64,000 nt of DNA, from positions 33,238-97,237 of the IMG/VR virus record IMGVR_UViG_3300007535_000003; one strand, given 5' to 3'. How positions within the stretch are numbered: position 1 is the stretch's first letter; the number at the start of each line of letters is the position of its first letter. Shown here piece after piece: positions 1 through 15,617 of this stretch. The translations under genes and the position numbers were made by a program. The notes beneath the pieces are model-generated. The model saw only the letters and a program-made list of their open reading frames with translations. It ran no database searches and was not told the DNA's origin. Source of the DNA: a virus.

Positions 1-78
1 ATCTACATTATCAACATTCACACCTGCAGTACCCCATGTACCATCTGTCCTTAATACGTTTATTTGCCTATTTAACAT
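1..78 (-). CDS. hypothetical protein, N-terminal part (runs off window start)
   Basis: ATG at 78, open frame to position 1 (MLNRQINVLRTDGTWGTAGVNVDNVD), AGGT-like leader. Confidence 0.5.
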   Translation of the reverse strand, partial: MLNRQINVLRTDGTWGTAGVNVDNVD

Positions 79-92
79 AATTACCTTTTTAT

Positions 93-236
93 TTATTCTG
101 TTACAAATTTAGCAAATTTCTTTGCTGTCCTGACTATCTCTGTGTCAGTTACTTCTTTATCGCCTTTAAGAAAGAATAAAGCCTCCCTAAGGCATTCTAG
201 CCTAAACTGTTCAACTGCTTTCTGTTGTTCATCCAT
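93..236 (-). CDS. hypothetical 47-aa protein
   Basis: Manually translated MDEQQKAVEQFRLECLREALFFLKGDKEVTDTEIVRTAKKFAKFVTE*; same strand as neighbours. Confidence 0.55.
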   Translation of the reverse strand: MDEQQKAVEQFRLECLREALFFLKGDKEVTDTEIVRTAKKFAKFVTE

Positions 237-295
237 AATTAATAATTTAGTACTGATACGTATATTTAGTTAAAAGGTTATATAATACTGATAAT

Positions 296-321
296 AAAAA
301 AACCCCAGCCTTACTGGGGTT
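296..321 (-). terminator. intrinsic terminator
   Basis: AACCCCAG/CTGGGGTT hairpin followed on the minus strand by a T-run, downstream of the HSP20 gene. Confidence 0.7.
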
Positions 322-375
322 AGACTGGAGTTAATAACCATAGTCCATACATAAGCAAACTGATTAAGTTAGTAA

Positions 376-675
376 CTACTCAACTTTAACTTGCTTACCT
401 AGGTCTTCCAATTCAATCTTTGATATACTTATACTTAGGATACCATTTTCATATTTAGCTCTTACATTGTCAAGGTCTAGATTCCTAGGTAAAGCATACC
501 ATTCATTAAATAATACCTTACGTGCCATAGCTTCACTTTCATGACTAGCCTTAACATGCAACTAACCTAACTCGGTAATAACTTTAATATCTGATTTGTC
601 AACGCCAGGGAGTACAACATCAACTACAAAATTACCTTTATCATCTTCACGCTTATAAATCTTTTCTATCAACAT
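376..675 (-). CDS. small heat-shock protein (HSP20/alpha-crystallin) with one in-frame TAG at 562-564
   Basis: ATG at 675 with upstream AGGGGAG. Reading through the TAG gives ...VVDVVLPGVDKSDIKV...LPRNLDLDNVRAKYENGILSISI, with both the LPG..K.DI and A.Y.NG.L HSP20 motifs. Confidence 0.75.
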
Positions 676-744
676 ATTTACTATCTCCCCTTTTTAGTTT
701 TACTCTTTGATTTACGCCCAGTTTTATATGATTGCCCATAGGCA

Positions 745-987
745 TTACTCTGGGGGCCTTTTATTATCTAACCTATAAATTAATTCTTCAGGGCTTGATA
801 TACTGCCTTTAAACTTATAAAATACTTCATCATCTTCAGTACCAGTCTCTTCATCAACTATTTCAGCTGCTTTTATGTTACGCCTAAACATAACATCAAC
901 TCCTGACTTATTTTCTGTACCTAAGTTAAACCTAGCTACATCAGTCCTATTATGGAGAATATCCCTAAATTCATCTTTTAAACTCAT
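745..987 (-). CDS. hypothetical protein
   Basis: 80-aa ORF in the minus-strand block. Confidence 0.6.
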   Translation of the reverse strand: MSLKDEFRDILHNRTDVARFNLGTENKSGVDVMFRRNIKAAEIVDEETGTEDDEVFYKFKGSISSPEELIYRLDNKRPPE

Positions 988-1029
988 AAGCTAAATAAGC
1001 TATTTTATTAATTTTTAGATATACCTATC

Positions 1030-1262
1030 CCCTATAATCGTAAAATTTGCCCTAAGTTTTCGCTAAACCAGTTCGTCACCTCTTGTTGGCTACACCCACC
1101 CCTATTTTTTCCATTCTATATAGACCTGTTGGGTCATAGGGTGCTTAGCTTATACTTAGGGTGTTTTTGGCACTATCGGGGACAATATACTTACTAACCC
1201 AACTTCTGACCCCCTAACTACCTCTCGGCCCTCGGGGGCGATCTACCTCTCGGTAGGTGCCT
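1030..1262 (-). ncRNA. candidate structured ncRNA
   Basis: GC-rich gap with no ORF in the track; GAGA-tetraloop hairpin (CTACC-GAGA-GGTAG) and several interleaved complementary blocks. Confidence 0.45.
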
Positions 1263-1272
1263 ATTAGTTAGA

Positions 1273-1524
1273 CTACCTGCCTAACCAATTACGGTACTTA
1301 TACTTATATTGGGTTGAAAAGGTTTCATTTTCACCCTCAAAATTTAACCTGGTTTGCCCAGATTGTTCTTGGTTAAGGTTATGTACACTTTCATCATATT
1401 TATACAAAGACCTCACATGTTCGCCTAATTCCTGATCATTAGGCATATTCCTAACAGCACTACTTACTTGCTTGTTCCTTGCTATCGCTCTCCTTATATA
1501 TTCTCCCGTAGATGTCATTATCAT
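1273..1524 (-). CDS. hypothetical protein
   Basis: 83-aa ORF overlapping the end of the GroES-like gene. Confidence 0.55.
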   Translation of the reverse strand: MIMTSTGEYIRRAIARNKQVSSAVRNMPNDQELGEHVRSLYKYDESVHNLNQEQSGQTRLNFEGENETFSTQYKYKYRNWLGR

Positions 1525-1951
1525 TCTCTTTAGTTATATTCCACATACCTAATATATCATATATATTTAACAAAACTGAGTCCCTATATAAGTCAAATTG
1601 AAATACACTAGGCCTCTCATGATAAACTATTACATCCCCTTCTTCAAGGTCAAATTTATCCTTATTACTATTAGATATGGATAGAACTACACCACGCCTA
1701 ACATTAGCTTTAACTTCTTTCGTAATAGTTTCAGTTTCAGTCTTAGGGCCCTTCTCAATTTCCTTTAGAGACTTCTTCTTACTAACCCTATCATCCTCCT
1801 TAAATACTATCTCTTCTCGTTTCAAATGTATAGGTTCCATCGGCTTTACTAACACCTTGTCGTCTAAAGGGGTAAATGGTATCTCTAGACGTTGTATCGC
1901 TTGTTTGTCTTGTTCTTTCAATTCTGTTGATGTTTTCACTGCTTCCGCCAT
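1460..1951 (-). CDS. GroES/Cpn10-like co-chaperonin with an enlarged mobile loop
   Basis: FTPLDDKVLVKP ... RGVVLSIS ... LEEGDVIVY ... DILG match the GroES pattern. Confidence 0.75.
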   Translation of the reverse strand: MAEAVKTSTELKEQDKQAIQRLEIPFTPLDDKVLVKPMEPIHLKREEIVFKEDDRVSKKKSLKEIEKGPKTETETITKEVKANVRRGVVLSISNSNKDKFDLEEGDVIVYHERPSVFQFDLYRDSVLLNIYDILGMWNITKENDNDIYGRIYKESDSKEQASK

Positions 1952-2552
1952 AATAATTATTTATAAGTTTAGTGATTACTACCACTGTTATTAATATCAT
2001 TGTGAACTTTAATAAAGCTTCAAATATTGTATCTTCTGCCTTATTTTTCATACCCTATTATACTCAAATTATAACAAATAGTTTCAAAAAATTTTTTATA
2101 TTATATATAGTCAAGTGAAGGTATCACTACTCTGTGTATACACCCCTCCCGCATAATATATAGCTGAGTACGGGTTCCACCTTGTATCAACCTCCCCTAT
2201 GCAGTTTTGAGGGGAAAAGGGGGGCACCTTTAACTTTTATTCCCCAAAGCCAAGGTAAGTTAATAAGTCTAAATATTACCTTAGGAGGCTTTGTAAAACG
2301 GCAACAAAGAATAACTCCTTAACCCGCCGTGTTTATTTTATGATTCTCAAATCACTATCAGGCTTTAAAAAAGTCTGGGAGTGGTTCTTTTGCTGAAGTA
2401 TCTCATAGCACTGATAGTGTTACTATGAGAAATGGTACTTATCTTCAGCTTTTCTTACACTCCCTTCATGACAGTAAGTAAAATAAGGTACCCTTGCCAA
2501 TATTCTCATAGGACTGATAGTAAGTTATAAACCTTTAAAATAATCAACAGTT

Positions 2553-3167
2553 ATGGAAAAAAAAGTCTATGAAATTGCTGGTGTCAACCGGCACAGCAAG
2601 ACCACAGTACGTGGTGAAGAGATAGAATATGTCTCACTTGCCCTGCAAGAAAAAGGTCGTAACATATTCAAAAGCTCTAACACTGACCCATTTGTCAACA
2701 TCTTTGGTAGCAATGCCAACGACAAACGCAAGATCGAACTTGTCAAAGCTTGCAAAGATGACAACGATAAGTACGATCCAGCTAAGCTTAAAGCGCTAGG
2801 TGATGTCGAAGGTTATTTTGCTACCCTCAGTGTGTCACCGTACTACGTCAAAGATCGGGAAGGTAACTATATGAAGTACCCCGATGGGCACCCTGACAAA
2901 GGGAAGCCTATGATCTCTACTCGTATCAGCGTGTTTGTTTGGGCTGGTGACGAGTCATCTCTGGAGGAGATCAAGACCATGAACATGGGTAATCGTGAGT
3001 TAGTGCCAACAACTGAACTTGACCCTAACCGATACGCATCTGCTAGTGCCAAACTGGTACTGCGTAAGGCTCAGGCTGAAGAAACAGCAAGAGGTAAGCC
3101 AGTTGATGACGAGTCCATTGGTGAGTCAGAGACTGAAGATCAGCAACAGCAAGGTCAAAAGATCTAA
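2553..3167 (+). CDS. hypothetical early protein with acidic tail (possibly ssDNA-binding)
   Basis: 204-aa ORF with more C-ending codons than neighbours, acidic C-terminus and its own terminator; function not identified. Confidence 0.7.
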   Translation: MEKKVYEIAGVNRHSKTTVRGEEIEYVSLALQEKGRNIFKSSNTDPFVNIFGSNANDKRKIELVKACKDDNDKYDPAKLKALGDVEGYFATLSVSPYYVKDREGNYMKYPDGHPDKGKPMISTRISVFVWAGDESSLEEIKTMNMGNRELVPTTELDPNRYASASAKLVLRKAQAEETARGKPVDDESIGESETEDQQQQGQKI

Positions 3168-3173
3168 AGTACT

Positions 3174-3201
3174 AGGGGTTACAGTGTGTAGCCCCTTTTT
3201 T
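3174..3201 (+). terminator. intrinsic terminator
   Basis: GGGGTTAC/GTAGCCCC stem followed by a T-run. Confidence 0.8.
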
Positions 3202-3260
3202 CACTAAGCTAAATCATGGTATTCCTACAAAATAAGTACCAATAACTAAATTAATTAATC

Positions 3261-3344
3261 ATGGAATTAGAAACAGCTGTTATAATTATGACATTATTTG
3301 CCATGCTTATAATAGTAATTATAAAAGGCAATAAGGATAAATAG
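3261..3344 (+). CDS. 27-aa single-TM microprotein
   Basis: MELETAVIIMTLFAMLIIVIIKGNKDK*, flanked by 20-bp direct repeats. Confidence 0.45.
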   Translation: MELETAVIIMTLFAMLIIVIIKGNKDK

Positions 3345-3645
3345 TAAGTACTGATAACTAAATTGAGTACTATCAGATCTGAAAGTTTAGTCCAAATTTG
3401 GACTGTCTGAAGTATGTTGGCATATCCCCAAATAAAGCCATATAAGCTGTTTATAGTCTAAATAGACCTGTAGTACCTAAACTACCCTATGAAGGCTTTA
3501 AATCGCTTAAAAAGGGCATTTATGGGCAAATGAGGGAGAGTGTTATAGGTCGTCTAAACTCACGCCTCAATCAGCCCTAATTTCACATAATCAATAACCC
3601 AACCTATATAATACTAATAGCTATAAACCACAAAAATATACAACT

Positions 3646-4029
3646 ATGAATAAAATTGAATTAATTGGAAGAGGTACAATAATTAACATTGATGATATTA
3701 ATTATTGTATTGAATCTCACAGCCATAATGACCCTGAATTAACAAGCTCAGTCTATCCCAGTAGGTACCTTTGCGTATTTGTCATTAAAGATGGGATAAA
3801 GTTTAGGATAGGATATATTAACTACAACGAACTAACCTGGTTTGATACACAAGCAAGGGAACAACTTATAGAGCATCCTAGTGATATAAAACAAGTTACT
3901 GTTATTAATGTCTTAAATTCGGTAGAGTTTAGTGTAAAAAGACTCCACACACCTTTACATGAATTTGATAGGCTGGATGAAGAGAACAGGGAAATGGTAT
4001 TTGAAAGATTAGTTGACACTGAACTTTAA
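3646..4029 (+). CDS. hypothetical early protein
   Basis: 127-aa ORF preceded by the AACCACAAA motif. Confidence 0.7.
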   Translation: MNKIELIGRGTIINIDDINYCIESHSHNDPELTSSVYPSRYLCVFVIKDGIKFRIGYINYNELTWFDTQAREQLIEHPSDIKQVTVINVLNSVEFSVKRLHTPLHEFDRLDEENREMVFERLVDTEL

Positions 4030-4040
4030 ACCACAAAACT

Positions 4041-4301
4041 ATGAAAATAATAAAAATAGTATTTAGGGTATTGTTAGTACCTATAATAATAGCAGCTGAA
4101 TTAGCAATCACAGCTGTATGTGGGTGGGGTATAGGGAAACTAATCCTATACTTTACACATGTAGATGAAATAGATTTGTTAGCATGCGACAGTTCAGTCC
4201 TTGAAACTATGTACTTAGGGGTAATCATTATAGTAGCATTTGTAACAGTATGTTTACTATTATATATAATATACTTATTAATTAAAGAATTTATTATATA
4301 A
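4041..4301 (+). CDS. two-TM membrane protein
   Basis: Two hydrophobic stretches; motif-led start. Confidence 0.7.
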   Translation: MKIIKIVFRVLLVPIIIAAELAITAVCGWGIGKLILYFTHVDEIDLLACDSSVLETMYLGVIIIVAFVTVCLLLYIIYLLIKEFII

Positions 4302-4314
4302 TCAAATCAATAGT

Positions 4315-4521
4315 ATGACTAGAGAGCAAATAACATTAGTAATAAAGAAACGTGAGGATTTATTAGAACAAAATCCTAATTTAAGGAAGGGTCAAGCATT
4401 CTACCTAATGTTAAGTACATACTTCTATCACAAAGCAATGGAAATTACAGCTACAAAATTTGACCCATTCTATGAAGATAAGAAGATTCCCAAGTGTATT
4501 AACTATCTTTTAAATCATTAA
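4315..4521 (+). CDS. hypothetical protein
   Basis: 68 aa with an LRKGQAF...FDPFY pattern typical of small phage proteins. Confidence 0.7.
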   Translation: MTREQITLVIKKREDLLEQNPNLRKGQAFYLMLSTYFYHKAMEITATKFDPFYEDKKIPKCINYLLNH

Positions 4522-4549
4522 ATACTATTAACTACAAAACTATAAGATT

Positions 4550-5071
4550 ATGAAGATTTACAGATTTAAAACTAAGGAAGAACTCATGAAAGAGTTTGGT
4601 TCTAATTTTAGAACTAAAGCACGTTTTAACAGTGAAGGTGAGATGGATTACCTATTCGGTACACCAGTGACAAAAGACTTCTATGAAGAAGTTGCAAACC
4701 AAGGTATTGCTATGATAGACAATGTAAATCCACATGCTTATCCCACCTTGTGGTCTGTCAACAATAAAATGTTAACCTGGAACTATAAACCTAAAAGGGG
4801 GGAAATAGTTGTAATTACACATTACCACAGTGGTAATATTGAAGGTACAGTTACTAAAATATTGGAAGCAAAATGGTACAGTGATTTAATATTATGTGAA
4901 GCCTTTACTGGTGATCCAATTAGAAATTTAAGACACCTAAACAAGCCTGCTTGGTTTGAAGCAGAGTATAGACCTGCTACTGAAGAAGAGAAAGAATTCT
5001 ACAGACTTGCTAAGAAAAAGGGGCGAGTTGCCATAGTAGGGCAAAGTAGTGGAAAACCACACATCTGTTAA
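4550..5071 (+). CDS. hypothetical protein
   Basis: 173 aa, YRFKTKEE N-terminus and RPATEEE motif. Confidence 0.75.
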   Translation: MKIYRFKTKEELMKEFGSNFRTKARFNSEGEMDYLFGTPVTKDFYEEVANQGIAMIDNVNPHAYPTLWSVNNKMLTWNYKPKRGEIVVITHYHSGNIEGTVTKILEAKWYSDLILCEAFTGDPIRNLRHLNKPAWFEAEYRPATEEEKEFYRLAKKKGRVAIVGQSSGKPHIC

Positions 5072-5126
5072 ACTAAACCACAAAGCTACAAAGTTATAAA
5101 TAAGTTAAATTAAACCACAAAATAAA

Positions 5127-5369
5127 GTGATTGAAAAAGGATTAGAAAGACTTAATAATCGTAAAGCCAAGCTTCTCAGGGATAGGGAAGCAATCAGTAC
5201 AGGTAGAATAGTATTTAGGAATAATAGGTTGTTAAACAACAAAAACTACAACCCATTGTTTGCAGAAGAATACAGATTCTCCCTCATCAGCTACATTGAC
5301 AAGAAAGTAGTGGAAATTGATGAAGAGATTGCAAAAAGTGAAGCTCCCCAGTTAGGTATGGGGAGCTGA
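5127..5369 (+). CDS. hypothetical protein
   Basis: 80 aa, GTG start right after the motif. Confidence 0.6.
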   Translation: MIEKGLERLNNRKAKLLRDREAISTGRIVFRNNRLLNNKNYNPLFAEEYRFSLISYIDKKVVEIDEEIAKSEAPQLGMGS

Positions 5370-5393
5370 TTATTAACCACAAAATATAGATGT

Positions 5394-5798
5394 ATGACAT
5401 CAAAAGCATTAGTATGGTTAAATTCCAACAAAGTACAGATTGGGGATCGAGTATTATTACTACCTGACGTACTCAAGGACAACCCTACAGAAGAATTAGC
5501 AGGACATGCTGTAGTAATTACTGGGTTAATACCTACAAAGGATTATAAGACAGCCTATGTAGAAGTAGGTAAACGTCTTCCTATTGGTGTAATAGGCTAT
5601 TGCCAACCTAATTATTATAGGCTGCTTAAAGCTACTCATTACAAGGTTAAGCAAACAGGTACAAAATGGCCTAAGTCAACTAATTGGCACAAGATCACAG
5701 ATTTCTTTGTGATGCTAAAAGGTTGGGAATACCAATTTGCTATCAAGGAAGATGGTTATATGATCCCATTGCAAACCAGGAAGTGGTGGAGATTATGA
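5394..5798 (+). CDS. hypothetical protein
   Basis: 134-aa motif-led ORF. Confidence 0.65.
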   Translation: MTSKALVWLNSNKVQIGDRVLLLPDVLKDNPTEELAGHAVVITGLIPTKDYKTAYVEVGKRLPIGVIGYCQPNYYRLLKATHYKVKQTGTKWPKSTNWHKITDFFVMLKGWEYQFAIKEDGYMIPLQTRKWWRL

Positions 5799-6124
5799 TA
5801 AGTAGGTGGCAAATATCCGGCAAGACCTTGGATAATAAGCTACTAGTCTCGTTTTTAAAGAAAGAGAGTTTATTAAATAGGTTTATTGATCTAACATACT
5901 TCTTTGCTTCTAAAACATCTAAGTTAAAAGCATCAAAGAGTGACCCATTTACGAGTACTAACAGCCCATTAAATATAAACGGGGATCTAAATGCTATATC
6001 ACAAGCATTTCCATGGGCAGCATCAATCGAAAGGGAACTATTCTGGTGTTCTATTGACAAAAAGTACAGAAAGTATGTAAAAACTAAAAAAAGGGAGGCT
6101 AAATATGAAAACCAGGTTAGATAG
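5795..6124 (+). CDS. hypothetical protein (likely start at ATG 5795 rather than 5684)
   Basis: ATGA overlap with the upstream stop codon. Confidence 0.55.
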   Translation: MISRWQISGKTLDNKLLVSFLKKESLLNRFIDLTYFFASKTSKLKASKSDPFTSTNSPLNINGDLNAISQAFPWAASIERELFWCSIDKKYRKYVKTKKREAKYENQVR

Positions 6125-6287
6125 AGCTAAAACTAGGCTTTCAGGTCAGCTGAATAGGCCTAAGTCCAAAAATATGCGAACTCGTGGAAAGAAAGTAATT
6201 GATAAGCGAGTACCAAGGGATGAAGAGCGTATAGTTGAACTGCAACAACGGATTAGCAGGCTAAAACGAGAGCAACATACGCAGTAG
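6105..6287 (+). CDS. small basic hypothetical protein
   Basis: 60 aa, Arg/Lys-rich, GGGAGG upstream. Confidence 0.55.
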   Translation: MKTRLDRAKTRLSGQLNRPKSKNMRTRGKKVIDKRVPRDEERIVELQQRISRLKREQHTQ

Positions 6288-6591
6288 AACCACAAACAAC
6301 AGAACTGTAGTAACCCATGTAGGATTAAGCCAGATGGTTGCTGCACAAACAGTAGGTCTTTAAATAAAACTATACAGACAACACCATAAATAGTTGTCAC
6401 CCCAAAGAAAGGGTATGAATGCTGAAGTACAGCTGATACAGCTCTTTCCCTACTGTTTTCCAATAACAGGTATTTTTTTGAGGACTTTTGTCCACCAGAT
6501 TATAACAAATAGTTTAAATACCGTAATTATGAGAGTACTTAAGCCACCTTAATTAACAACAACTAAAATTTATTTATTATTATTTTAGAGA

Positions 6592-6635
6592 TTAAATTAT
6601 TAAAACTAAACAGTTAAATTATTAAAACTAAACAG
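6592..6635. repeat. 22-bp tandem duplication
   Basis: TTAAATTATTAAAACTAAACAG x2. Confidence 0.9.
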
Positions 6636-6720
6636 GTAGATCTATTCTGACAGATACGCGCTCATTGAGGGTGGGATCTACCTGTTTATCTTATACAATA
6701 AACCACAAAAATTAAGTAAG

Positions 6721-7341
6721 ATGAAAAAAAACTTTAACAAAGAAATAGACATACTTAGACAGCTTCTCATATATAAGGAAAACTGTCAGTACGAAATGAG
6801 CTTAAGACAGCCGATAGGTGACGGACCTATGGCGCTTGTAAGTAGAGCCAGGTATGTTACAGGGTATATGTCTACAAGGTGGTTTGATCTATTTGACATA
6901 TACAAAGAGTTACAACTAACAGTTGGTTGGAATTTAAGTGATTTATTAAGTAAAAGCATAATTGACTTAGGATGTGGAACAGGATTACTTGTAGACTTAT
7001 TCAGCATAATATTTAAGAAAACTTATGGAATAGAAGCTGATTGGAATCTTTGTAAGATAGCTACAATAATGAGGCCTCATCTAGAAATATACAATGGATA
7101 TGTACAGGAAAGAGTAGACTTAATACTCAGGTTAGATCCTGACATTATTTATGCTTTTAATATCACAGGTGAACCAAGAGAAACATTTGATGAGTTATTC
7201 AGGAAGATGCGCAAGGGACAAGTATTTGTACATCTAGGGGGCTCAACAGAGATAGAAGAGTTAATAGATGAACACAAGTTTAATACATCTAACAAAGAGG
7301 AAGATAGGCAATCAGCCAGAGTACTGATAGCTATTAAATAA
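6721..7341 (+). CDS. class I SAM-dependent methyltransferase
   Basis: IIDLGCGTG motif I followed by YGIE. Confidence 0.8.
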   Translation: MKKNFNKEIDILRQLLIYKENCQYEMSLRQPIGDGPMALVSRARYVTGYMSTRWFDLFDIYKELQLTVGWNLSDLLSKSIIDLGCGTGLLVDLFSIIFKKTYGIEADWNLCKIATIMRPHLEIYNGYVQERVDLILRLDPDIIYAFNITGEPRETFDELFRKMRKGQVFVHLGGSTEIEELIDEHKFNTSNKEEDRQSARVLIAIK

Positions 7342-7359
7342 AACCACAAAATTAAAAAT

Positions 7360-7488
7360 ATGGATTGGGAACAATCAAGAGACGAAGATAGAGAATTTGA
7401 TCCTAATGATGGACAAGATATCTACGGATGCATACTAGGAGCAATTATGTGGATAGCACTAATAGCACTAGCGATTTTCTGTAGATAA
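7360..7488 (+). CDS. 42-aa acidic, C-terminal-TM microprotein
   Basis: MDWEQSRDEDREFDPNDGQDIYGCILGAIMWIALIALAIFCR*, motif-led. Confidence 0.55.
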   Translation: MDWEQSRDEDREFDPNDGQDIYGCILGAIMWIALIALAIFCR

Positions 7489-7608
7489 ACCACAAAAATG
7501 AAATTGTTAAAAATATAGAGAGATCTTGGAGCCCAATCAGGGCTATCGGCGACGACACGGTGGTAACCAGCCCATACAGCAGTCGTACTTCAGGTCTCCC
7601 TAACTTAT

Positions 7609-7728
7609 GGTCCGTTCGTCTAGTGGTAGGACGCCGAGCTGTTAATACTTTATACATGCACTAGCTATGTTAGAGTATCAACCATGGTTTGCCCCACGGA
7701 AACGGAGGTTCGACTCCTCCACGGACTG
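7609..7728 (+). ncRNA. tRNA-like RNA with an expanded anticodon arm
   Basis: Acceptor GGTCCGT/ACGGACT, D-arm GTCT-AGTGGT-AGGAC, T-arm GGAGG-TTCGACT-CCTCC; about 50 extra nt in the anticodon arm. Confidence 0.75.
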
Positions 7729-7733
7729 CTGTT

Positions 7734-7926
7734 AGCCATATAGCTCAAAAGTGTTACACTCAAGTTCCTAGGAATCGGCTGTAACCCCCAAGGATATGCA
7801 GAGGAGAATGGAACTTATTTGGACTTAAAATCCAATCCATTCTAGGCCACCTCACGCAGAGTCCGAGTAGCGGAAGAGCCCCTAATAAATTATAGGGAGA
7901 TCTGGGTTCGAGTCCCAGTATGGCTA
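7734..7926 (+). ncRNA. tRNA-like RNA with a ~120-nt insert in the D-loop
   Basis: Acceptor AGCCATA/TATGGCT, D-stem GCTC/GAGC, CCCTA/TAGGG arm, T-arm CTGGG-TTCGAGT-CCCAG. Confidence 0.75.
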
Positions 7927-7961
7927 CTATTTTTATTTACAAACCACAAAAATTAAATATT

Positions 7962-8393: not shown

Positions 8394-8837
8394 ATGTGGA
8401 AATCTAACTCAAAGCAAAGCAAAGACAAAATAAGTAAGGGCAGTTTAGTAATTATTGACATGCCCGACTTTATTGGAGAATATGTACCTTCAATAAGTAA
8501 GGTAGCGTGTAGCTACAAAGAAAAGATGCTACATTTCTCTAATGTTAGCAATGCTTTTGGTAGCTTATTTGGTGAAGAACACCATTTAATAGAAGTACCA
8601 AGAGCAGTCATACTCTATAACAAGACACATTTTCTTAAGAGTGTATTAGAGCTATCTGAAGCATATAAAGAAGATAGCTTAGATTCTTTATTCTTTTACG
8701 GTCGTAAAATAGTACTACCAGTCCATGAGGGATACTTAATGCCGGTAAGTAAAATAAAGGATCCACACAAAAGAGGACTATGTTATAGAGAATGGGAAAT
8801 GTTAAAGACTAAGGGATATAGTAACCTTATAACCTAA
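8394..8837 (+). CDS. hypothetical protein
   Basis: 147-aa ORF in operon. Confidence 0.65.
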   Translation: MWKSNSKQSKDKISKGSLVIIDMPDFIGEYVPSISKVACSYKEKMLHFSNVSNAFGSLFGEEHHLIEVPRAVILYNKTHFLKSVLELSEAYKEDSLDSLFFYGRKIVLPVHEGYLMPVSKIKDPHKRGLCYREWEMLKTKGYSNLIT

Positions 8838-8898
8838 CTTAACTAACAAACGATTTACTTACGCTGCTAGCTAGGGCTTTAGCGGACTCGGGTTCGAT

Positions 8899-9519
8899 CA
8901 AAAGGTCGAAGTTAAACTGGGTGAATTCAGGGAAACCTAAGTCACAATGATAAGGCAACCCTGAGCCAAGCCCTTAAGAGGGAAGGTGCAGAGACTACCT
9001 GAATACAGGCTAGAGCGCCCAGCACTTAAAAGTGAAGAGATAGTCCGATACTCCTGAGAAATTAGGAGAAGAAGCGAGATGTAAATTCTTGACGTTTTGA
9101 TAAGGTTTCTTTTGTATATTTACCATTACGAGGTGTTATACTCTTCAATTCGTTAAGTATCATATCTATACGTCTACGCTTCTTGGGATGTCTGGAATTT
9201 ATGTAAGATAGTACGTTTATACATTTAGGTAAATAAGTATACCTCAGCTCATAATTAGTAAAATCACCTGATTTTTTAGTACAAATGAATCCATTATGAC
9301 CTGTTTCAAGTTTAATAAATTTTTCTATTTCCACAAGTAGGTCATATTCGTTATTACTAAAAGAAATAACAGGTGATCTTTCGCAATTCTTATGTAAACG
9401 TAAAAATGTTATCGTGCCGTCAGCATCAAAGAAACCTGTAATATATTCCCAACCCATATTTTTATTGAATATACGGACGCAGGTTTGAAATGTTACTGTT
9501 CCAGATGTTTTAACTATTG
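8899..9519 (+). mobile_element. group I intron in the tmRNA T-loop
   Basis: P1 with U.G at the splice site (TTCGAT/GTCGAA); P GAATTCAGGGAAAC 8923; Q AACCCTGAGCCAAG 8957; R GTGCAGAGACTA 8986; S AAGAGATAGTCC 9035; P3 CTGGGTG/CGCCCAG; extra P7.1 hairpin (IA-like); terminal G9519. Confidence 0.92.
9062..9457 (-). CDS. single-motif LAGLIDADG homing endonuclease, antisense within the intron
   Basis: N-terminal YITGFFDADGTI motif, 131 aa, located in the P9 region of the intron. Confidence 0.9.
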   Translation of the reverse strand: MGWEYITGFFDADGTITFLRLHKNCERSPVISFSNNEYDLLVEIEKFIKLETGHNGFICTKKSGDFTNYELRYTYLPKCINVLSYINSRHPKKRRRIDMILNELKSITPRNGKYTKETLSKRQEFTSRFFS

Positions 9520-11626: not shown

Positions 11627-12151
11627 ATGTCAAAAAGTAAAAAAGAAAGAAACACTTCACACGACGCAATAGAGTTAATACTCGTAAGCGTGCGTATCAA
11701 CGAGCTCAGGAGCTTAAGGTTACGGTTATTTAACGACATTTATTTAATACGTTCAACCTGTCAAAACTCCAAGTTTACAAGAGCTTCTAGTACTATCAAC
11801 AATATGAGTTTACTCATAAGCGAGATAGATGCTAGAAGAAAAAGCTTAACAAGGAGAAGTAGATCCTTGATGGTAAGAATGATTAAGCTAACCAATAAAA
11901 CATTTCAAGAAAAACCATCAGAGCTAGTGCCCTTACACAATAAAGATATTGAAACTGGGTATGTAGAACTGACGGAAGTAACTGAACAAGGTGAACTTAT
12001 ACCCCATTTACTACTACTTGATAGTGGTAAAATAGAACCAGCTAACAATGTAAGAGCTAAACAGATCATGGCAAGAGGTCCCAGCTATACCGGGTTCACC
12101 TTCGATAAAATAAAAGCCTTGGCTATAATGTCTGAAACCTGGCCAAGGTAG
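11627..12151 (+). CDS. hypothetical protein
   Basis: 174-aa ORF. Confidence 0.7.
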   Translation: MSKSKKERNTSHDAIELILVSVRINELRSLRLRLFNDIYLIRSTCQNSKFTRASSTINNMSLLISEIDARRKSLTRRSRSLMVRMIKLTNKTFQEKPSELVPLHNKDIETGYVELTEVTEQGELIPHLLLLDSGKIEPANNVRAKQIMARGPSYTGFTFDKIKALAIMSETWPR

Positions 12152-12215
12152 CACATAATATTTTTTGTGGTTTGAGTCGATTTAGGTGCGAGCCTATTTC
12201 GGCTTCAATTTTTGT
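12152..12215 (+). ncRNA. candidate antisense sRNA to the AACCACAAA/AUG leaders
   Basis: CATAATATTTTTTGTGGTTTG followed by a GCGA-tetraloop hairpin and a T-rich tail. Confidence 0.55.
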
Positions 12216-13450
12216 AGCAGTTCTTGAGAGAACCTTCACCCTACCGCCTTTGGATTCGGCAATGTTGGGAATACCAAGGACAATGCCTACTACCTATTAG
12301 CTACTCAATATCTACAAAACTACTCTCCTTATGAAGTATCCTAGGAAGATGGGTTCCAATTATTGATTTAAGCGCACTCTGAGGAACTGGCAGACCCGAT
12401 GGATACATTAAGGTAAATAGGTCTAACGCAACCCATGGTCAAATCCGTACTCTTAAGTGTGTGGGTATTACCCTTAAGAGCTTATGCATGCTCGCACTTC
12501 CCTTTACGAAAAGGTTGAACTAAGAAGTAACTGAATACGGGGCTGTATATACTGTATACAGTGGGGCTGGAAACACCAGAAGACTACGATGATGCTACCT
12601 AGTAAATAGGCCAAGTGAACACTTAACTTTGAATTAAGTTAGTAACGGGGGGTCCAAATTCCTTAGAGTCGTTGTATAGACCTTGAGTACCGAGTACAGA
12701 GTAGATAATTTATCCCCCAGTAAAGTGGTGTAGTTCAAGCCGCAGTAGCGAAATATGAACTGTCGTCTGTGATTTCGGCTGGGGTAAGAGGAGGAGGGAT
12801 GGATACGTGTGCTTCACCGTTTGTATGGTAAGAAGCTACATGTTATACGCCCTAGCCAAGATCTGAAGCATGAATCGTCAAGTTGGGGCTTAGGAATAAG
12901 TTTGATAAATAGCCTGCGATAGGTCGCAATCCCTATCAGTTTCAACCATCGAGTAATGTGGAGGATACATACATCAATGAGGCGGTAATGCCGCCCAGTA
13001 TCATGGTAGTGCGCTTTATAACTGATGCAGCCATTTCCAGTTATATTTGCTTGGAGCTACTTATGATGCGATACTCTGTAGGACAGAGGGTCTTTAAACT
13101 TAGCAGGTAACCGTAAGTGTGGAGAACAAAGTTAAGTCCCTAGAGTAGAACAGACCTCTAACAGTTCTACAAAATTCAAATAGTAAACAAGGGTTTACAA
13201 CGGAGCCGTTAGGCTGTTGTATAATATATACCCAAATAAATGTCAGTGTATTTCTTGCCTAACCACAGCAAGAGACTGACTAATAGTGACTATAAGAGTA
13301 TTAAGCTAAGGAGGTTGTGAGTGGATGTGGTTCATGAGGTACCAAGTGCATTTTAAAAGCTTGGGTGGATGACTTCATTGAATCATAGCTTAATATTAAG
13401 TAAGGAAATAGGACTGGGGCTTAAGAAAGTCCCAGCTCCCCAGTCCTTTT
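12216..13450 (+). ncRNA. candidate very large structured ncRNA (or cluster of ncRNAs)
   Basis: No ORF >=60 aa in any frame, higher GC, many hairpins and long-range complements, ends in a terminator. Confidence 0.65.
13410..13450 (+). terminator. intrinsic terminator
   Basis: AGGACTGGGG/CCCCAGTCCT stem followed by TTT. Confidence 0.75.
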
Positions 13451-13463
13451 AAACTATTAAAAA

Positions 13464-13778
13464 ATGAAGGTAAAAAAGTATAAATATCTAATACCTATAA
13501 TAAGCATAAAAGCTGAAGGTACCTTAGTACATTTGATACAGCGCAATATTCTGTACAAAGCTAAAAAAGTACTAGGGATCAAAATACCAATAGAAAAGAT
13601 CTTTCAAAAAGACAGGGGGATCTCAGCTTGGAAAGAGACAGCGGGTCATAAGCAGACTAAATGGAGAATAGTCTACATAAAAGATGAAGATAATAACATC
13701 AGATTAGGGCCCGTTATTCAAGACAAGAAACTTTTAAAGTTTTTAAACAAGATTACTAACCAAAATTATGCAAAATGA
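13464..13778 (+). CDS. hypothetical basic protein
   Basis: 104-aa ORF. Confidence 0.6.
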   Translation: MKVKKYKYLIPIISIKAEGTLVHLIQRNILYKAKKVLGIKIPIEKIFQKDRGISAWKETAGHKQTKWRIVYIKDEDNNIRLGPVIQDKKLLKFLNKITNQNYAK

Positions 13779-15230: not shown

Positions 15231-15617
15231 ATGGAAGACAAATTAAAGCTTCCAACCAGCATACAAAGAGAAATAGATGAGATAGCTTCATCAAGAAATG
15301 ATGAGGTAATGTCTCTAGTACACATCTGGCGCAACAGGCAAATAAAGTATAAGTTTGATCCTGTAGTTCATGATGGTAAGAGCAACAATCAATTAATAAG
15401 AGGAGGGTGCCAATGTTCATACTGTAAACACCTTAAACTCTATGTCCAAAAGAAGTTGGAACATCACAGATTGAAGAAGTTTATAGATAAGTGTGATATG
15501 TACGGCATAGAAGTAAGTGAACTGGATGATTTATTAAAAACCCTTGATGAGATTAAAATTAAAGTTCAGTATGAGAAATCTATTAAAGATAAAGTTAAAC
15601 AAGAACTAAAACTCTAG
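15231..15617 (+). CDS. hypothetical protein with a CxCxxC motif
   Basis: GCQCSYC; 128 aa. Confidence 0.7.
   Translation: MEDKLKLPTSIQREIDEIASSRNDEVMSLVHIWRNRQIKYKFDPVVHDGKSNNQLIRGGCQCSYCKHLKLYVQKKLEHHRLKKFIDKCDMYGIEVSELDDLLKTLDEIKIKVQYEKSIKDKVKQELKL

What the first reader, a model, noticed from the sequence alone, without database searches (positions are those of the whole stretch)
12216..13450. ~1.2-kb ORF-free, hairpin-dense region: candidate giant ncRNA
Seen: no ORF >=60 aa in an otherwise densely coding genome, elevated GC and many local hairpins (e.g. CTCTTAAG/CTTAAGAG, CCCCAG/CTGGGG, GATAGG/CCTATC, TATTAAGCTA/TAGCTTAATA). Long-range complements include AAGCGCACT 12370 / AGTGCGCTT 13008, TACAGAGTA 12695 / TACTCTGTA 13072 and CTCCTTA / TAAGGAG near the two ends. 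A loop AACCACA (13261) is complementary to TGTGGTT (13326), the same core as the early leader motif. The region ends in a terminator. Known: large ornate RNAs such as GOLLD and ROOL occur in phages near tRNA genes. Inference: a member of such a class, or a new and larger one.
Basis: partly seen in the sequence, partly recalled or inferred. Interest (0 to 1): 0.78.

Follow-up and report, generated by a model that had tools for sequence, protein, structure and literature searches.

The report
Noncoding RNA locus, crAss-like phage
A 1.3-kb gene-free, G+C-rich stretch of a soil crAss-like phage is most likely a noncoding RNA locus that relatives keep at the same place; the one structure shown to be conserved is a small hairpin that copies the anticodon arm of tRNA-Trp, and nothing yet shows a single giant folded RNA.

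Summary
The gap is real. Window 12152-13463 has no ORF of 60 aa or more under any stop-codon reading. It has no protein signal, 42-45% G+C against 35% around it, and a strong hairpin plus U-run at its end. It matches no Rfam family even at E<=10 (GOLLD, ROOL, OLE, RNase P, introns, tmRNA, tRNA).

'Hairpin-dense' holds only weakly. Short perfect hairpins occur about 1.9 times as often as in shuffles, but folding-energy z-scores are no better than in the flanking genes.

The phage is crAss-like. Eight related contigs (seven lineages) carry an ORF-free gap, G+C-raised in most, at the same place upstream of the replication genes, but their sequences cannot be aligned with the window's.

One element is shared with five of them: a hairpin with the invariant loop GUCCAAA, which is a tRNA-Trp-type anticodon loop. 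Its stems are completely different between lineages (6 of 6 pairs covary). In the window this stem is the weakest.

In phage phi14:2 the equivalent intergenic region is published as abundantly transcribed long noncoding RNA.

Best reading: a modular noncoding RNA locus. Whether it is one giant RNA or several RNAs is open. Earlier notes of this scan describe similar loci in other crAss-like phages.

The parts
12152..13463 (+). ORF-free, G+C-raised gap between two + strand genes that are conserved in the closest relative. This is the noncoding RNA locus.
   Evidence: ORF lists and stop counts; G+C; no Pfam or tblastx signal; syntenic gaps in relatives
12157..12182 (+). Conserved 5' block. It contains TTTTGTGGTTT (12163-12173), the reverse complement of the AAACCACAAAA motif that stands before about ten early genes.
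   Evidence: 22 of 26 positions are identical in the closest relative, L002, although nothing else in the gap aligns. The motif count is 12 against 2.1 expected, and this is the only exact + strand copy. The sense/antisense asymmetry is 1 against 11.
12190..12215 (+). Weak terminator-like hairpin with a U-run. It could end a short 5' RNA.
   Evidence: Consensus scan. RNAfold prefers a neighbouring hairpin. Not conserved in L002.
12249..12254 (+). UUUGGA, complementary to the hairpin loop UCCAAA. It lies about 100 nt from the gap start, as in L002 (UUUGG); G002 has one about 100 nt before its hairpin.
   Evidence: Absent from G001, G003 and L144, so only a lead.
12647..12663 (+). Anticodon-arm-like hairpin, GGGGG[GUCCAAA]UUCCU. 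The loop is 12652-12658 and reads as U33, anticodon CCA, A37, A38.
   Evidence: The same 7-nt loop on unrelated stems occurs in five relatives. On alignment A4, 89% of cells pair, 6 of 6 pairs change on both sides, and 0 of 500 shuffles reach this. Enrichment in the gaps. Strain variant T12659C turns the closing G.U into G-C. In the window the stem has three G.U pairs and a predicted pairing probability of about 0.
12784..12791 (+). GTAAGAGG block, within GGGGTAAGAGGAGGAGGG. Similar blocks follow the hairpin in relatives.
   Evidence: 7-mer shared by 6 of 9 gap sequences. In relatives it precedes a T-loop-like TTCGAAT-CCCRCC that the window lacks. Tentative.
13299..13395 (+). Local domain closed by a perfect 10-bp helix (TATTAAGCTA / TAGCTTAATA).
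   Evidence: the repeat finder pair I5; MFE of 13290-13462 is -52.8 kcal/mol; local z -2.6
13407..13455 (+). Strong hairpin followed by UUUU, an intrinsic-terminator-like 3' end 9 nt before the next ATG.
   Evidence: the repeat finder pair I2; -23.3 kcal/mol. The gaps of G002 and G003 also end in a hairpin plus U-run just before the next gene.

Best explanation
The gap is a noncoding RNA locus of a soil crAss-like phage. I infer that it is transcribed rightward with the early/replication gene block and ends at the hairpin plus U-run at 13407-13455.

It is probably modular rather than one globally folded RNA:
- a conserved 5' block carrying the antisense of the phage's early-gene leader motif;
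- a central part, the most conserved between strains, that displays a free-standing copy of a tRNA-Trp-type anticodon arm (loop GUCCAAA);
- a clamped 3' domain followed by the terminator.

Proposed mechanism (inferred): the anticodon-arm copy is the working part. It would act as a mimic or decoy for a factor that reads tRNA anticodon arms with A36-A37-A38, such as a host anticodon nuclease used in defence, a tRNA-modifying enzyme, or the synthetase. Alternatively it would pair through its loop with UUUGGA-type sequences. The rest would serve as a fast-evolving scaffold or as further small RNAs.

Shown: no coding capacity, the conserved position, the covarying hairpin, and the terminator-like end.
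Inferred: transcription, the limits of the transcripts, and the mimicry.

My odds: functional noncoding RNA locus about 0.65; modular rather than one ornate RNA about 0.45 against 0.2; anticodon-arm mimicry as the function about 0.2.
For: 1. No coding signal.
- No long frame opens under any stop reading.
- Pfam finds nothing in the eight longest open frames.
- tblastx finds nothing against relatives.
- The flanking genes are whole and have full-length homologues in L002, so the gap is not an intron in a split gene.

2. Position is conserved.
- The phage is crAss-like: its major capsid protein is 61-63% identical to those of cr118_1, cr50_1 and others.
- In L002/G005 (DNA polymerase 69% identical) the same two genes flank a 900-nt ORF-poor gap. 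Its G+C is raised (0.37 against 0.29) and it opens with the same 5' block.
- G001, G002, G003, L144 and L146 carry gaps of 1.0-1.4 kb about 1.4 kb upstream of the homologue of the 128-aa protein (window 15231-15617).
- L136 and L150 carry gaps of 0.8-0.9 kb, 6-8 kb upstream of the DNA polymerase gene.

3. A covarying hairpin.
- The GUCCAAA loop sits on six unrelated stems.
- 7 of the 8 GTCCAAA sites in about 11.7 kb of gap sequence are hairpins. In the surrounding genome and locus sequence, 4 of about 58 are (1.14 Mb, both strands, scanned in all).
- In 1.6 Mb of loci, stems of 5 bp or more are almost confined to this clade and all lie on the + strand.
- The G.U pairs fit only the + strand RNA.
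- A real tRNA-Trp (L168) has the loop CUCCAAA.

4. Constraint on the nucleotide sequence.
- A variant strain differs at 1 of 216 positions in 12587-12802 against 30 of 526 in the upstream gene. That one change improves the hairpin.
- In the pair L174/L136 the gap core has 1.7% mismatches against about 4% in coding DNA.

5. Published precedent.
[quoted passage not shown] The authors call them long non-coding RNAs of unknown function (bioRxiv 10.1101/2020.03.07.982082).
- In NC_021806 this is 2905-4601, about 5 kb upstream of the DNA polymerase gene.

6. The 3' end.
- It is terminator-like here and in G002 and G003.
Against: - No RNA data exist for this phage.
- Folding energies are no better than those of shuffles, and weaker than in the flanking genes.
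- In the window the key hairpin is the weakest of the six. It has three G.U pairs, and the model prefers to pair the G-run with CCCCC at 12714-12718, giving a pairing probability of about 0.
- Apart from the 5' block and the 7-nt loop, nothing in the window's 1.3 kb aligns with any relative. Homology of the whole gap is therefore not shown.
- GUCCAAA hairpins also occur elsewhere in this clade: in a separate 180-nt intergenic region (L136/L174) and inside ORFs (L150/G004, L146). The hairpin may be an independent small module.
- I found the motif by inspection, so the statistics are post hoc.
- The strain contigs are of low depth and may mix strains; a second stretch (12978-13182) differs by 11%.
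- No cloverleaf surrounds the hairpin, and the tRNA models do not match.
Confidence: 0.5

Rival explanations
1. One giant, globally folded 'ornate' RNA of about 1.2-1.3 kb, running from the promoter near 12150 to the terminator. It would be a new class comparable to GOLLD or ROOL, possibly forming RNA-only assemblies.
For: - The size, raised G+C and absence of ORFs fit.
- There is only one strong terminator, at the 3' end.
- Short hairpins and complementary 9-10-mers are about twice as frequent as in shuffles.
- UUUGGA at 12249 could pair with the loop at 12652.
- The phi14:2 transcripts are described as long noncoding RNAs.
- Earlier scan notes report large conserved RNA loci in other crAss-like phages. 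These are unchecked and do not count as independent evidence.
Against: - There is no match to GOLLD, ROOL, OLE, raiA, HEARO or any other Rfam family at E<=10.
- The MFE z-score is -0.3, and local z-scores are worse than in coding flanks.
- No long-range helix is conserved with the closest relative.
- The syntenic gaps vary from about 0.7 to 1.4 kb with unrelated sequence.
- Half of the phi14:2 'long RNA' region is simply a tmRNA gene.
Confidence: 0.2
2. A DNA-level element rather than an RNA gene: a replication origin, a packaging site or a regulatory region next to the replication module. The hairpin would then be a DNA structure or a protein-binding site.
For: - It lies upstream of the replication genes and its sequence diverges fast between relatives, as phage origins often do.
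- Virion RNA polymerases of some phages use DNA hairpins as promoters (N4; my own knowledge). The phi14:2 enzyme transcribes single-stranded DNA, and no early promoter motif is known for it.
Against: - The gap is G+C-rich, not A+T-rich, and has no iterons or tandem repeats.
- The cumulative GC skew turns at about 35.5 and 69 kb of the genome, at the strand switches, not at the gap.
- The G.U pairs in the window's and L002's stems would be mismatches in DNA, and A.C on the template strand.
- The equivalent region of phi14:2 is an abundant RNA.
Confidence: 0.1
3. Sequence with no function of its own: a decayed gene, the relic of a mobile element, or a spacer. The shared 7-mer hairpin would be coincidence or a small independent element.
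For: - It does not align with relatives.
- There is no thermodynamic signal.
- GUCCAAA hairpins also turn up inside ORFs.
Against: - A gap has been kept at the same position in seven related lineages besides the window's, in otherwise tightly packed genomes.
- G+C is raised by about 8 points in both the window and L002.
- There is no residual protein similarity.
- Nucleotide divergence is lower than in the neighbouring genes in two lineages.
- The hairpin is strongly enriched in the gaps.
Confidence: 0.1

Closest known systems
Long intergenic transcripts of crAss-like phage phi14:2 (g004-g005 and g005-g006 junctions; Drobysheva et al., bioRxiv 10.1101/2020.03.07.982082)
   Same: Both are gene-free stretches of 1.3-1.7 kb in a crAss-like phage, on the same strand as the DNA polymerase gene and 5-6 kb upstream of it. 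In phi14:2 the stretch is transcribed at high level from early infection on, with function unknown.
   Different: No sequence similarity was seen (no alignment was run; phi14:2 was only compared by motif and shared-loop scans), and phi14:2 has no GUCCAAA hairpin. The 3' half of the phi14:2 region is an ordinary tmRNA, whereas the window's gap matches no tmRNA model. phi14:2 has a family B polymerase and belongs to another family of the order.
GOLLD and ROOL RNAs (large ornate phage and prophage RNAs, Rfam)
   Same: Large size, phage location, raised G+C, no ORF, tRNA-type genes nearby.
   Different: No covariance-model match even at E<=10. No conserved multi-helix architecture could be shown, and there is no thermodynamic signal.
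tRNA-Trp anticodon arm (loop CUCCAAA in a real phage tRNA-Trp, L168)
   Same: A 5-6-bp stem with a 7-nt loop carrying U33, anticodon CCA, A37 and A38. Only position 32 differs: G instead of C.
   Different: No acceptor, D or T arm surrounds it, and ARAGORN and the Rfam tRNA model do not match. It stands alone inside a long noncoding stretch.
Phage tRNA-like and tRNA-derived RNAs used against tRNA-targeting host defences (general knowledge, not tested here)
   Same: A phage-encoded RNA that offers an anticodon loop.
   Different: Known cases are complete tRNAs. A bare anticodon arm in a long RNA has not, to my knowledge, been described, and nothing here shows a nuclease or a defence context.

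Membership tests
GOLLD, ROOL, OLE, raiA, HEARO and other large Rfam ncRNAs | Match to the family covariance model (sequence plus structure) | tested here: not met
   cmscan of the whole window at gathering scores. Sensitive runs at E<=10 on 11900-13700 and on the five syntenic gaps gave only chance-level snoRNA and miRNA hits.
Group I or group II intron | Match to an intron model, and a host gene split by the element | tested here: not met
   The Intron_gpI model hits 8774-9068 in the same window but nothing in the gap. The flanking genes are complete and collinear with their L002 homologues.
tmRNA (standard or permuted) | tRNA-like domain with a G3.U70 acceptor stem and T-arm, plus a tag reading frame | tested here: not met
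   ARAGORN and the Rfam tmRNA models find none in the gap. The same tools do find the phi14:2 tmRNA. The gap has no T-loop hairpin.
tRNA | Cloverleaf with acceptor, D, anticodon and T arms | tested here: not met
   Only an anticodon-arm-like hairpin is present. There is no ARAGORN or RF00005 match.
Long noncoding transcripts of crAss-like phages (phi14:2 type) | Long gene-free region upstream of the replication genes, on the same strand | tested here: met
   The window's gap is 6.2 kb upstream of the DNA polymerase gene. In phi14:2 the region 2905-4601 is 5 kb upstream.
Long noncoding transcripts of crAss-like phages (phi14:2 type) | Abundant, stable transcript during infection | not testable with these tools
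   No RNA run holds this phage. The host is unknown and the phage uncultured.
Clade-specific GUCCAAA hairpin element (defined here) | Invariant 7-nt loop on a stem of 4 bp or more, on the + strand, in the syntenic gap | tested here: met
   Window 12647-12663, 5 pairs of which 3 are G.U. Whether it forms in context is doubtful.

The most novel reading that the evidence does not exclude
A clade of crAss-like phages encodes long noncoding RNAs whose conserved core is a free-standing copy of the tRNA-Trp anticodon arm. It would act as a decoy for a host anticodon-loop nuclease or another tRNA-reading factor, while the rest of the RNA evolves freely. The same RNA may also carry an antisense 'anti-leader' at its 5' end that shuts off about ten early genes.
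Probability: 0.15. Interest if true: 0.8.

Novelty: new variant of a known kind. Interest (0 to 1): 0.5.

Why it matters
crAss-like phages are among the most abundant phages known. Their long gene-free regions are transcribed at very high level in the one phage studied, phi14:2, and nobody knows why.

This locus adds three things:
- A second, environmental clade keeps such a region at the same place.
- The sequence turns over almost completely between relatives.
- One small element, an anticodon-arm look-alike, is held fixed through that turnover.

That gives a concrete, testable handle on function: mutate the loop, or pull down what binds it. It also cautions against calling every ORF-free, G+C-rich kilobase a 'giant ornate RNA'.

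Tried and rejected
- **Alternative genetic codes:** rejected, because no frame opens.
- **Decayed gene:** rejected (Pfam, tblastx).
- **Similarity to known phages:** none by blastn or megablast.
- **Relatives through the flanking 352-aa protein:** nothing in IMG/VR. Only one distant hit among 5.8 billion proteins.
- **The 5' block as a search pattern:** a scan of IMG/VR found only L002 and one chance hit inside a gene.
- **DNA polymerase scans:** scans of IMG/VR, JGI metagenomes and GTDB genomes gave no relative closer than 69% identity except a near-duplicate of L002 (L143). Covariation analysis of the window's own RNA was therefore impossible.
- **blastn and nhmmer of the gap against all relatives:** nothing.
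- **Sequencing runs:** no RNA holder is listed. Only low-depth DNA contigs could be laid on the sequence.
- **T-loop-like block as a search pattern:** the scan mostly returned odd tRNA-Met genes of unrelated phages.
- **Further shared hairpin loops:** only GUCCAAA stands out from chance.
- **A conserved UUUGGAC target site:** nothing consistent.
- **Function of flanking proteins:** PDB sequence searches of the 128-aa and 352-aa proteins gave nothing; PHROGs and Pfam found only a cold-shock domain and an SLT domain.
- **Replication origin by GC skew:** not supported.
- **No covariance model was built.** With two or three alignable sequences it would have added little.

Full report
**What is there**

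The window is the right-hand 64 kb of a 97-kb IMG/VR phage record that also occurs in soil metagenomes. Between the stop codon of a 174-aa gene (12151) and the ATG of a 104-aa gene (13464) lie 1312 bases with no ORF of 60 aa or more on either strand.
- Each frame carries 16-37 stops of all three kinds. Reading any one stop through opens at most 140 codons, so recoding does not explain the gap.
- G+C is 0.42-0.45 against 0.33-0.37 around it.
- The eight longest open frames match no Pfam family, and tblastx against relatives finds nothing.
- The gap ends in a strong hairpin with a UUUU tail (13407-13455; -23.3 kcal/mol for 13400-13462), 9 nt before the next start codon.

**Is it 'hairpin-dense'?**

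Only modestly.
- Counts of perfect short hairpins and of complementary 9-10-mers are about twice those of dinucleotide shuffles, with 3-10 of 200 shuffles reaching them.
- On the same measure, 35 coding segments of the window reach z 2.4 against 2.2-2.6 for the target.
- Folding energies give no signal. The whole-region z-score is -0.3 on the + strand and -1.2 on the - strand. 150-nt windows inside the gap average -0.05, against -1.5 in the flanking genes.
- The named long-range 9-mers are what a sequence of this length gives by chance about three to four times.

**Known families**

cmscan against Rfam 15 finds a group I intron and two tRNA-like genes elsewhere in the window but nothing in the gap. 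This holds at gathering scores and at E<=10 with permissive filters. ARAGORN finds nothing there either. The locus is therefore not a recognisable GOLLD, ROOL, OLE, RNase P, intron, tmRNA or tRNA.

**Who carries it, and what relatives have at the same place**

The major capsid protein is 61-63% identical to those of gut crAss-like phages; portal and terminase fit as well. The flanking genes have almost no relatives in public data. DNA polymerase scans of IMG/VR, JGI metagenomes and GTDB genomes gave one subclade partner, L002/G005 (69% identical, with a near-duplicate L143), and a wider clade at 46-53% identity.
- L002 is collinear with the window. Homologues of the same two genes flank a 900-nt ORF-poor gap with raised G+C (0.37 against 0.29).
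- Nothing in the two gaps aligns except the first 26 nt. This block contains TTTTGTGGTTT, the reverse complement of AAACCACAAAA, which stands 0-12 nt before the start codons of about ten early genes.
- In G001, G002, G003, L144 and L146, ORF-free gaps of 1.0-1.4 kb lie about 1.4 kb upstream of the homologue of the window's 128-aa protein (15231-15617). In L136/L174 and L150, gaps of 0.7-0.9 kb lie 6-8 kb upstream of the polymerase gene.
- The gaps of G002 and G003 also end in a hairpin plus U-run just before the next gene.
- Position and general make-up are thus conserved across the clade; sequence is not.

**The one conserved structure**

Seven of the nine gap sequences contain GTCCAAA on the + strand. 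In six, the window included, it is the loop of a hairpin whose stems share nothing:

| Sequence | Hairpin |
|---|---|
| Window | GGGGG/UUCCU |
| L002 | AUAUGG/UCAUAU |
| G001 | GAGUCC/GGACUC |
| G002 | AAACU/AGUUU |
| L144 | CGAG/CUCG |
| G003 | AUGG/CCAU, with a 9-nt loop |

- On alignment A4, 89% of cells pair, all six pairs change on both sides, no shuffle of 500 reaches this, and slid registers pair only 25-53%.
- 7 of the 8 sites in the gaps are hairpins. In the surrounding genome and locus sequence, 4 of about 58 are (1.14 Mb, both strands, scanned in all). In 1.6 Mb of loci, stems of 5 bp or more are almost confined to this clade and are all on the + strand.
- The loop reads as an anticodon loop: U33, anticodon CCA, A37, A38. 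A real phage tRNA-Trp has CUCCAAA. No cloverleaf surrounds it.
- Caveat 1: I found the motif by eye.
- Caveat 2: the window's stem is the weakest, with three G.U pairs. In a context of 120 nt on either side, the folding model pairs the G-run with CCCCC at 12714-12718 instead.
- Caveat 3: the same hairpin also occurs in a separate 180-nt intergenic region of L136/L174 and inside ORFs of L150/G004 and L146. It may be an independent small module.
- A variant strain in one run differs from the window at a single position in 12587-12802. That position is T12659C, which turns the closing G.U pair into G-C.

**Constraint**

That strain shows 1 difference in 216 nt around the hairpin against 30 in 526 nt of the upstream gene. 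Another stretch (12978-13182) differs by 11%, and the contigs are of low depth. In the pair L174/L136 (93-96% identical) the gap core has 10 mismatches in 600 nt, against about 4% in coding DNA and about 10% in the gene just upstream. The 150-nt window that covers most of the 180-nt hairpin region (6601-6750) has none. This is what purifying selection on a noncoding sequence looks like.

**Precedent**

[quoted passage not shown] The transcripts are present from the first time point, do not decline, and their function is unknown. In NC_021806 this is 2905-4601, about 5 kb upstream of the polymerase gene, so it is the positional counterpart of the window's gap. Its 3' half is an ordinary tmRNA (ARAGORN 4031-4500; Rfam 46 bits against a threshold of 47). 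The 5' half matches nothing. Such regions can therefore be strings of RNA genes rather than one RNA.

**Other readings**
- Replication origin: not favoured. The gap is G+C-rich and has no repeats, and the GC skew turns at the strand switches near 35.5 and 69 kb of the genome, not here.
- Split gene or intron: excluded by the intact flanking genes.
- Junk: hard to square with the conserved position, the raised G+C in two lineages and the low divergence.

**Verdict**

I read it as a modular noncoding RNA locus of an environmental crAss-like clade. Its conserved parts are a 5' anti-leader block, an anticodon-arm look-alike and a terminator. The most likely role of the hairpin, still speculative, is mimicry of a tRNA anticodon arm.

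Earlier notes of this scan describe similar ORF-free, G+C-rich loci in other crAss-like phages. I did not test those, and they are not independent support.

Noticed in passing
window 3625-7951 (+) and 12163-12173 (+): AAACCACAAAA stands 0-12 nt before the start codons of about ten early genes. Its only exact antisense copy opens the gap studied here and is conserved in L002. It could be a phage RNA that pairs with early leaders.
   Followed up: partly
window 7819-7835 (+): A second free-standing anticodon-arm look-alike, UUGGA[CUUAAAA]UCCAA (Leu, anticodon UAA), inside an odd tRNA-like gene. Like the Trp-type loop it has U33, A37 and A38.
   Followed up: no
L178 (phi14:2, NC_021806) 4031-4500: The g005-g006 'long non-coding RNA' region of phi14:2 contains a standard tmRNA gene (ARAGORN tag GSSVQKLAMVA; Rfam tmRNA 46 bits, just under the threshold of 47). 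The text passages I read did not say this.
   Followed up: partly
L164:4573-4657, L166:5650-5735, L168:4539-4623, L173:3473-3556: tRNA-Met(CAT) genes of 84-86 nt in unrelated high-G+C phages carry a bulge of about 8-12 nt ending UAAGA in the 5' strand of the T-stem. The same odd T-arm block (TAAGAGG-TTCGAAT-CCCGCC) occurs in the gap of G001 and, in variant form, in the gaps of G002, G003, L144 and L146.
   Followed up: partly
L136:6562-6742 and L174, same place: A 180-nt intergenic region after a 401-aa gene holds another GUCCAAA hairpin. Most of it (the 6601-6750 window) shows no substitution between two phages that differ by about 4% elsewhere.
   Followed up: partly
G000 1-3583 (outside the window; locus L176): The first 3.5 kb of the phage record has almost no ORF of 50 aa or more, at ordinary G+C (0.34-0.35). 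It may be another noncoding stretch, a recoded gene or an assembly end.
   Followed up: no
window 36258-58541 (-): A single ORF of 7427 aa, followed by ORFs of 678 and 926 aa with no PHROG match (the 7427-aa ORF itself was not searched). It is presumably the crAss-type virion RNA polymerase block fused into one giant gene.
   Followed up: no
L016, L017, L018, L019 (DNA polymerase genes): In several relatives the DNA polymerase match is split into two pieces 0.8-1 kb apart, suggesting introns or inteins in the gene. The window's terminase (1046 aa, outside the window) also carries an insert with helicase- and primase-like hits.
   Followed up: no
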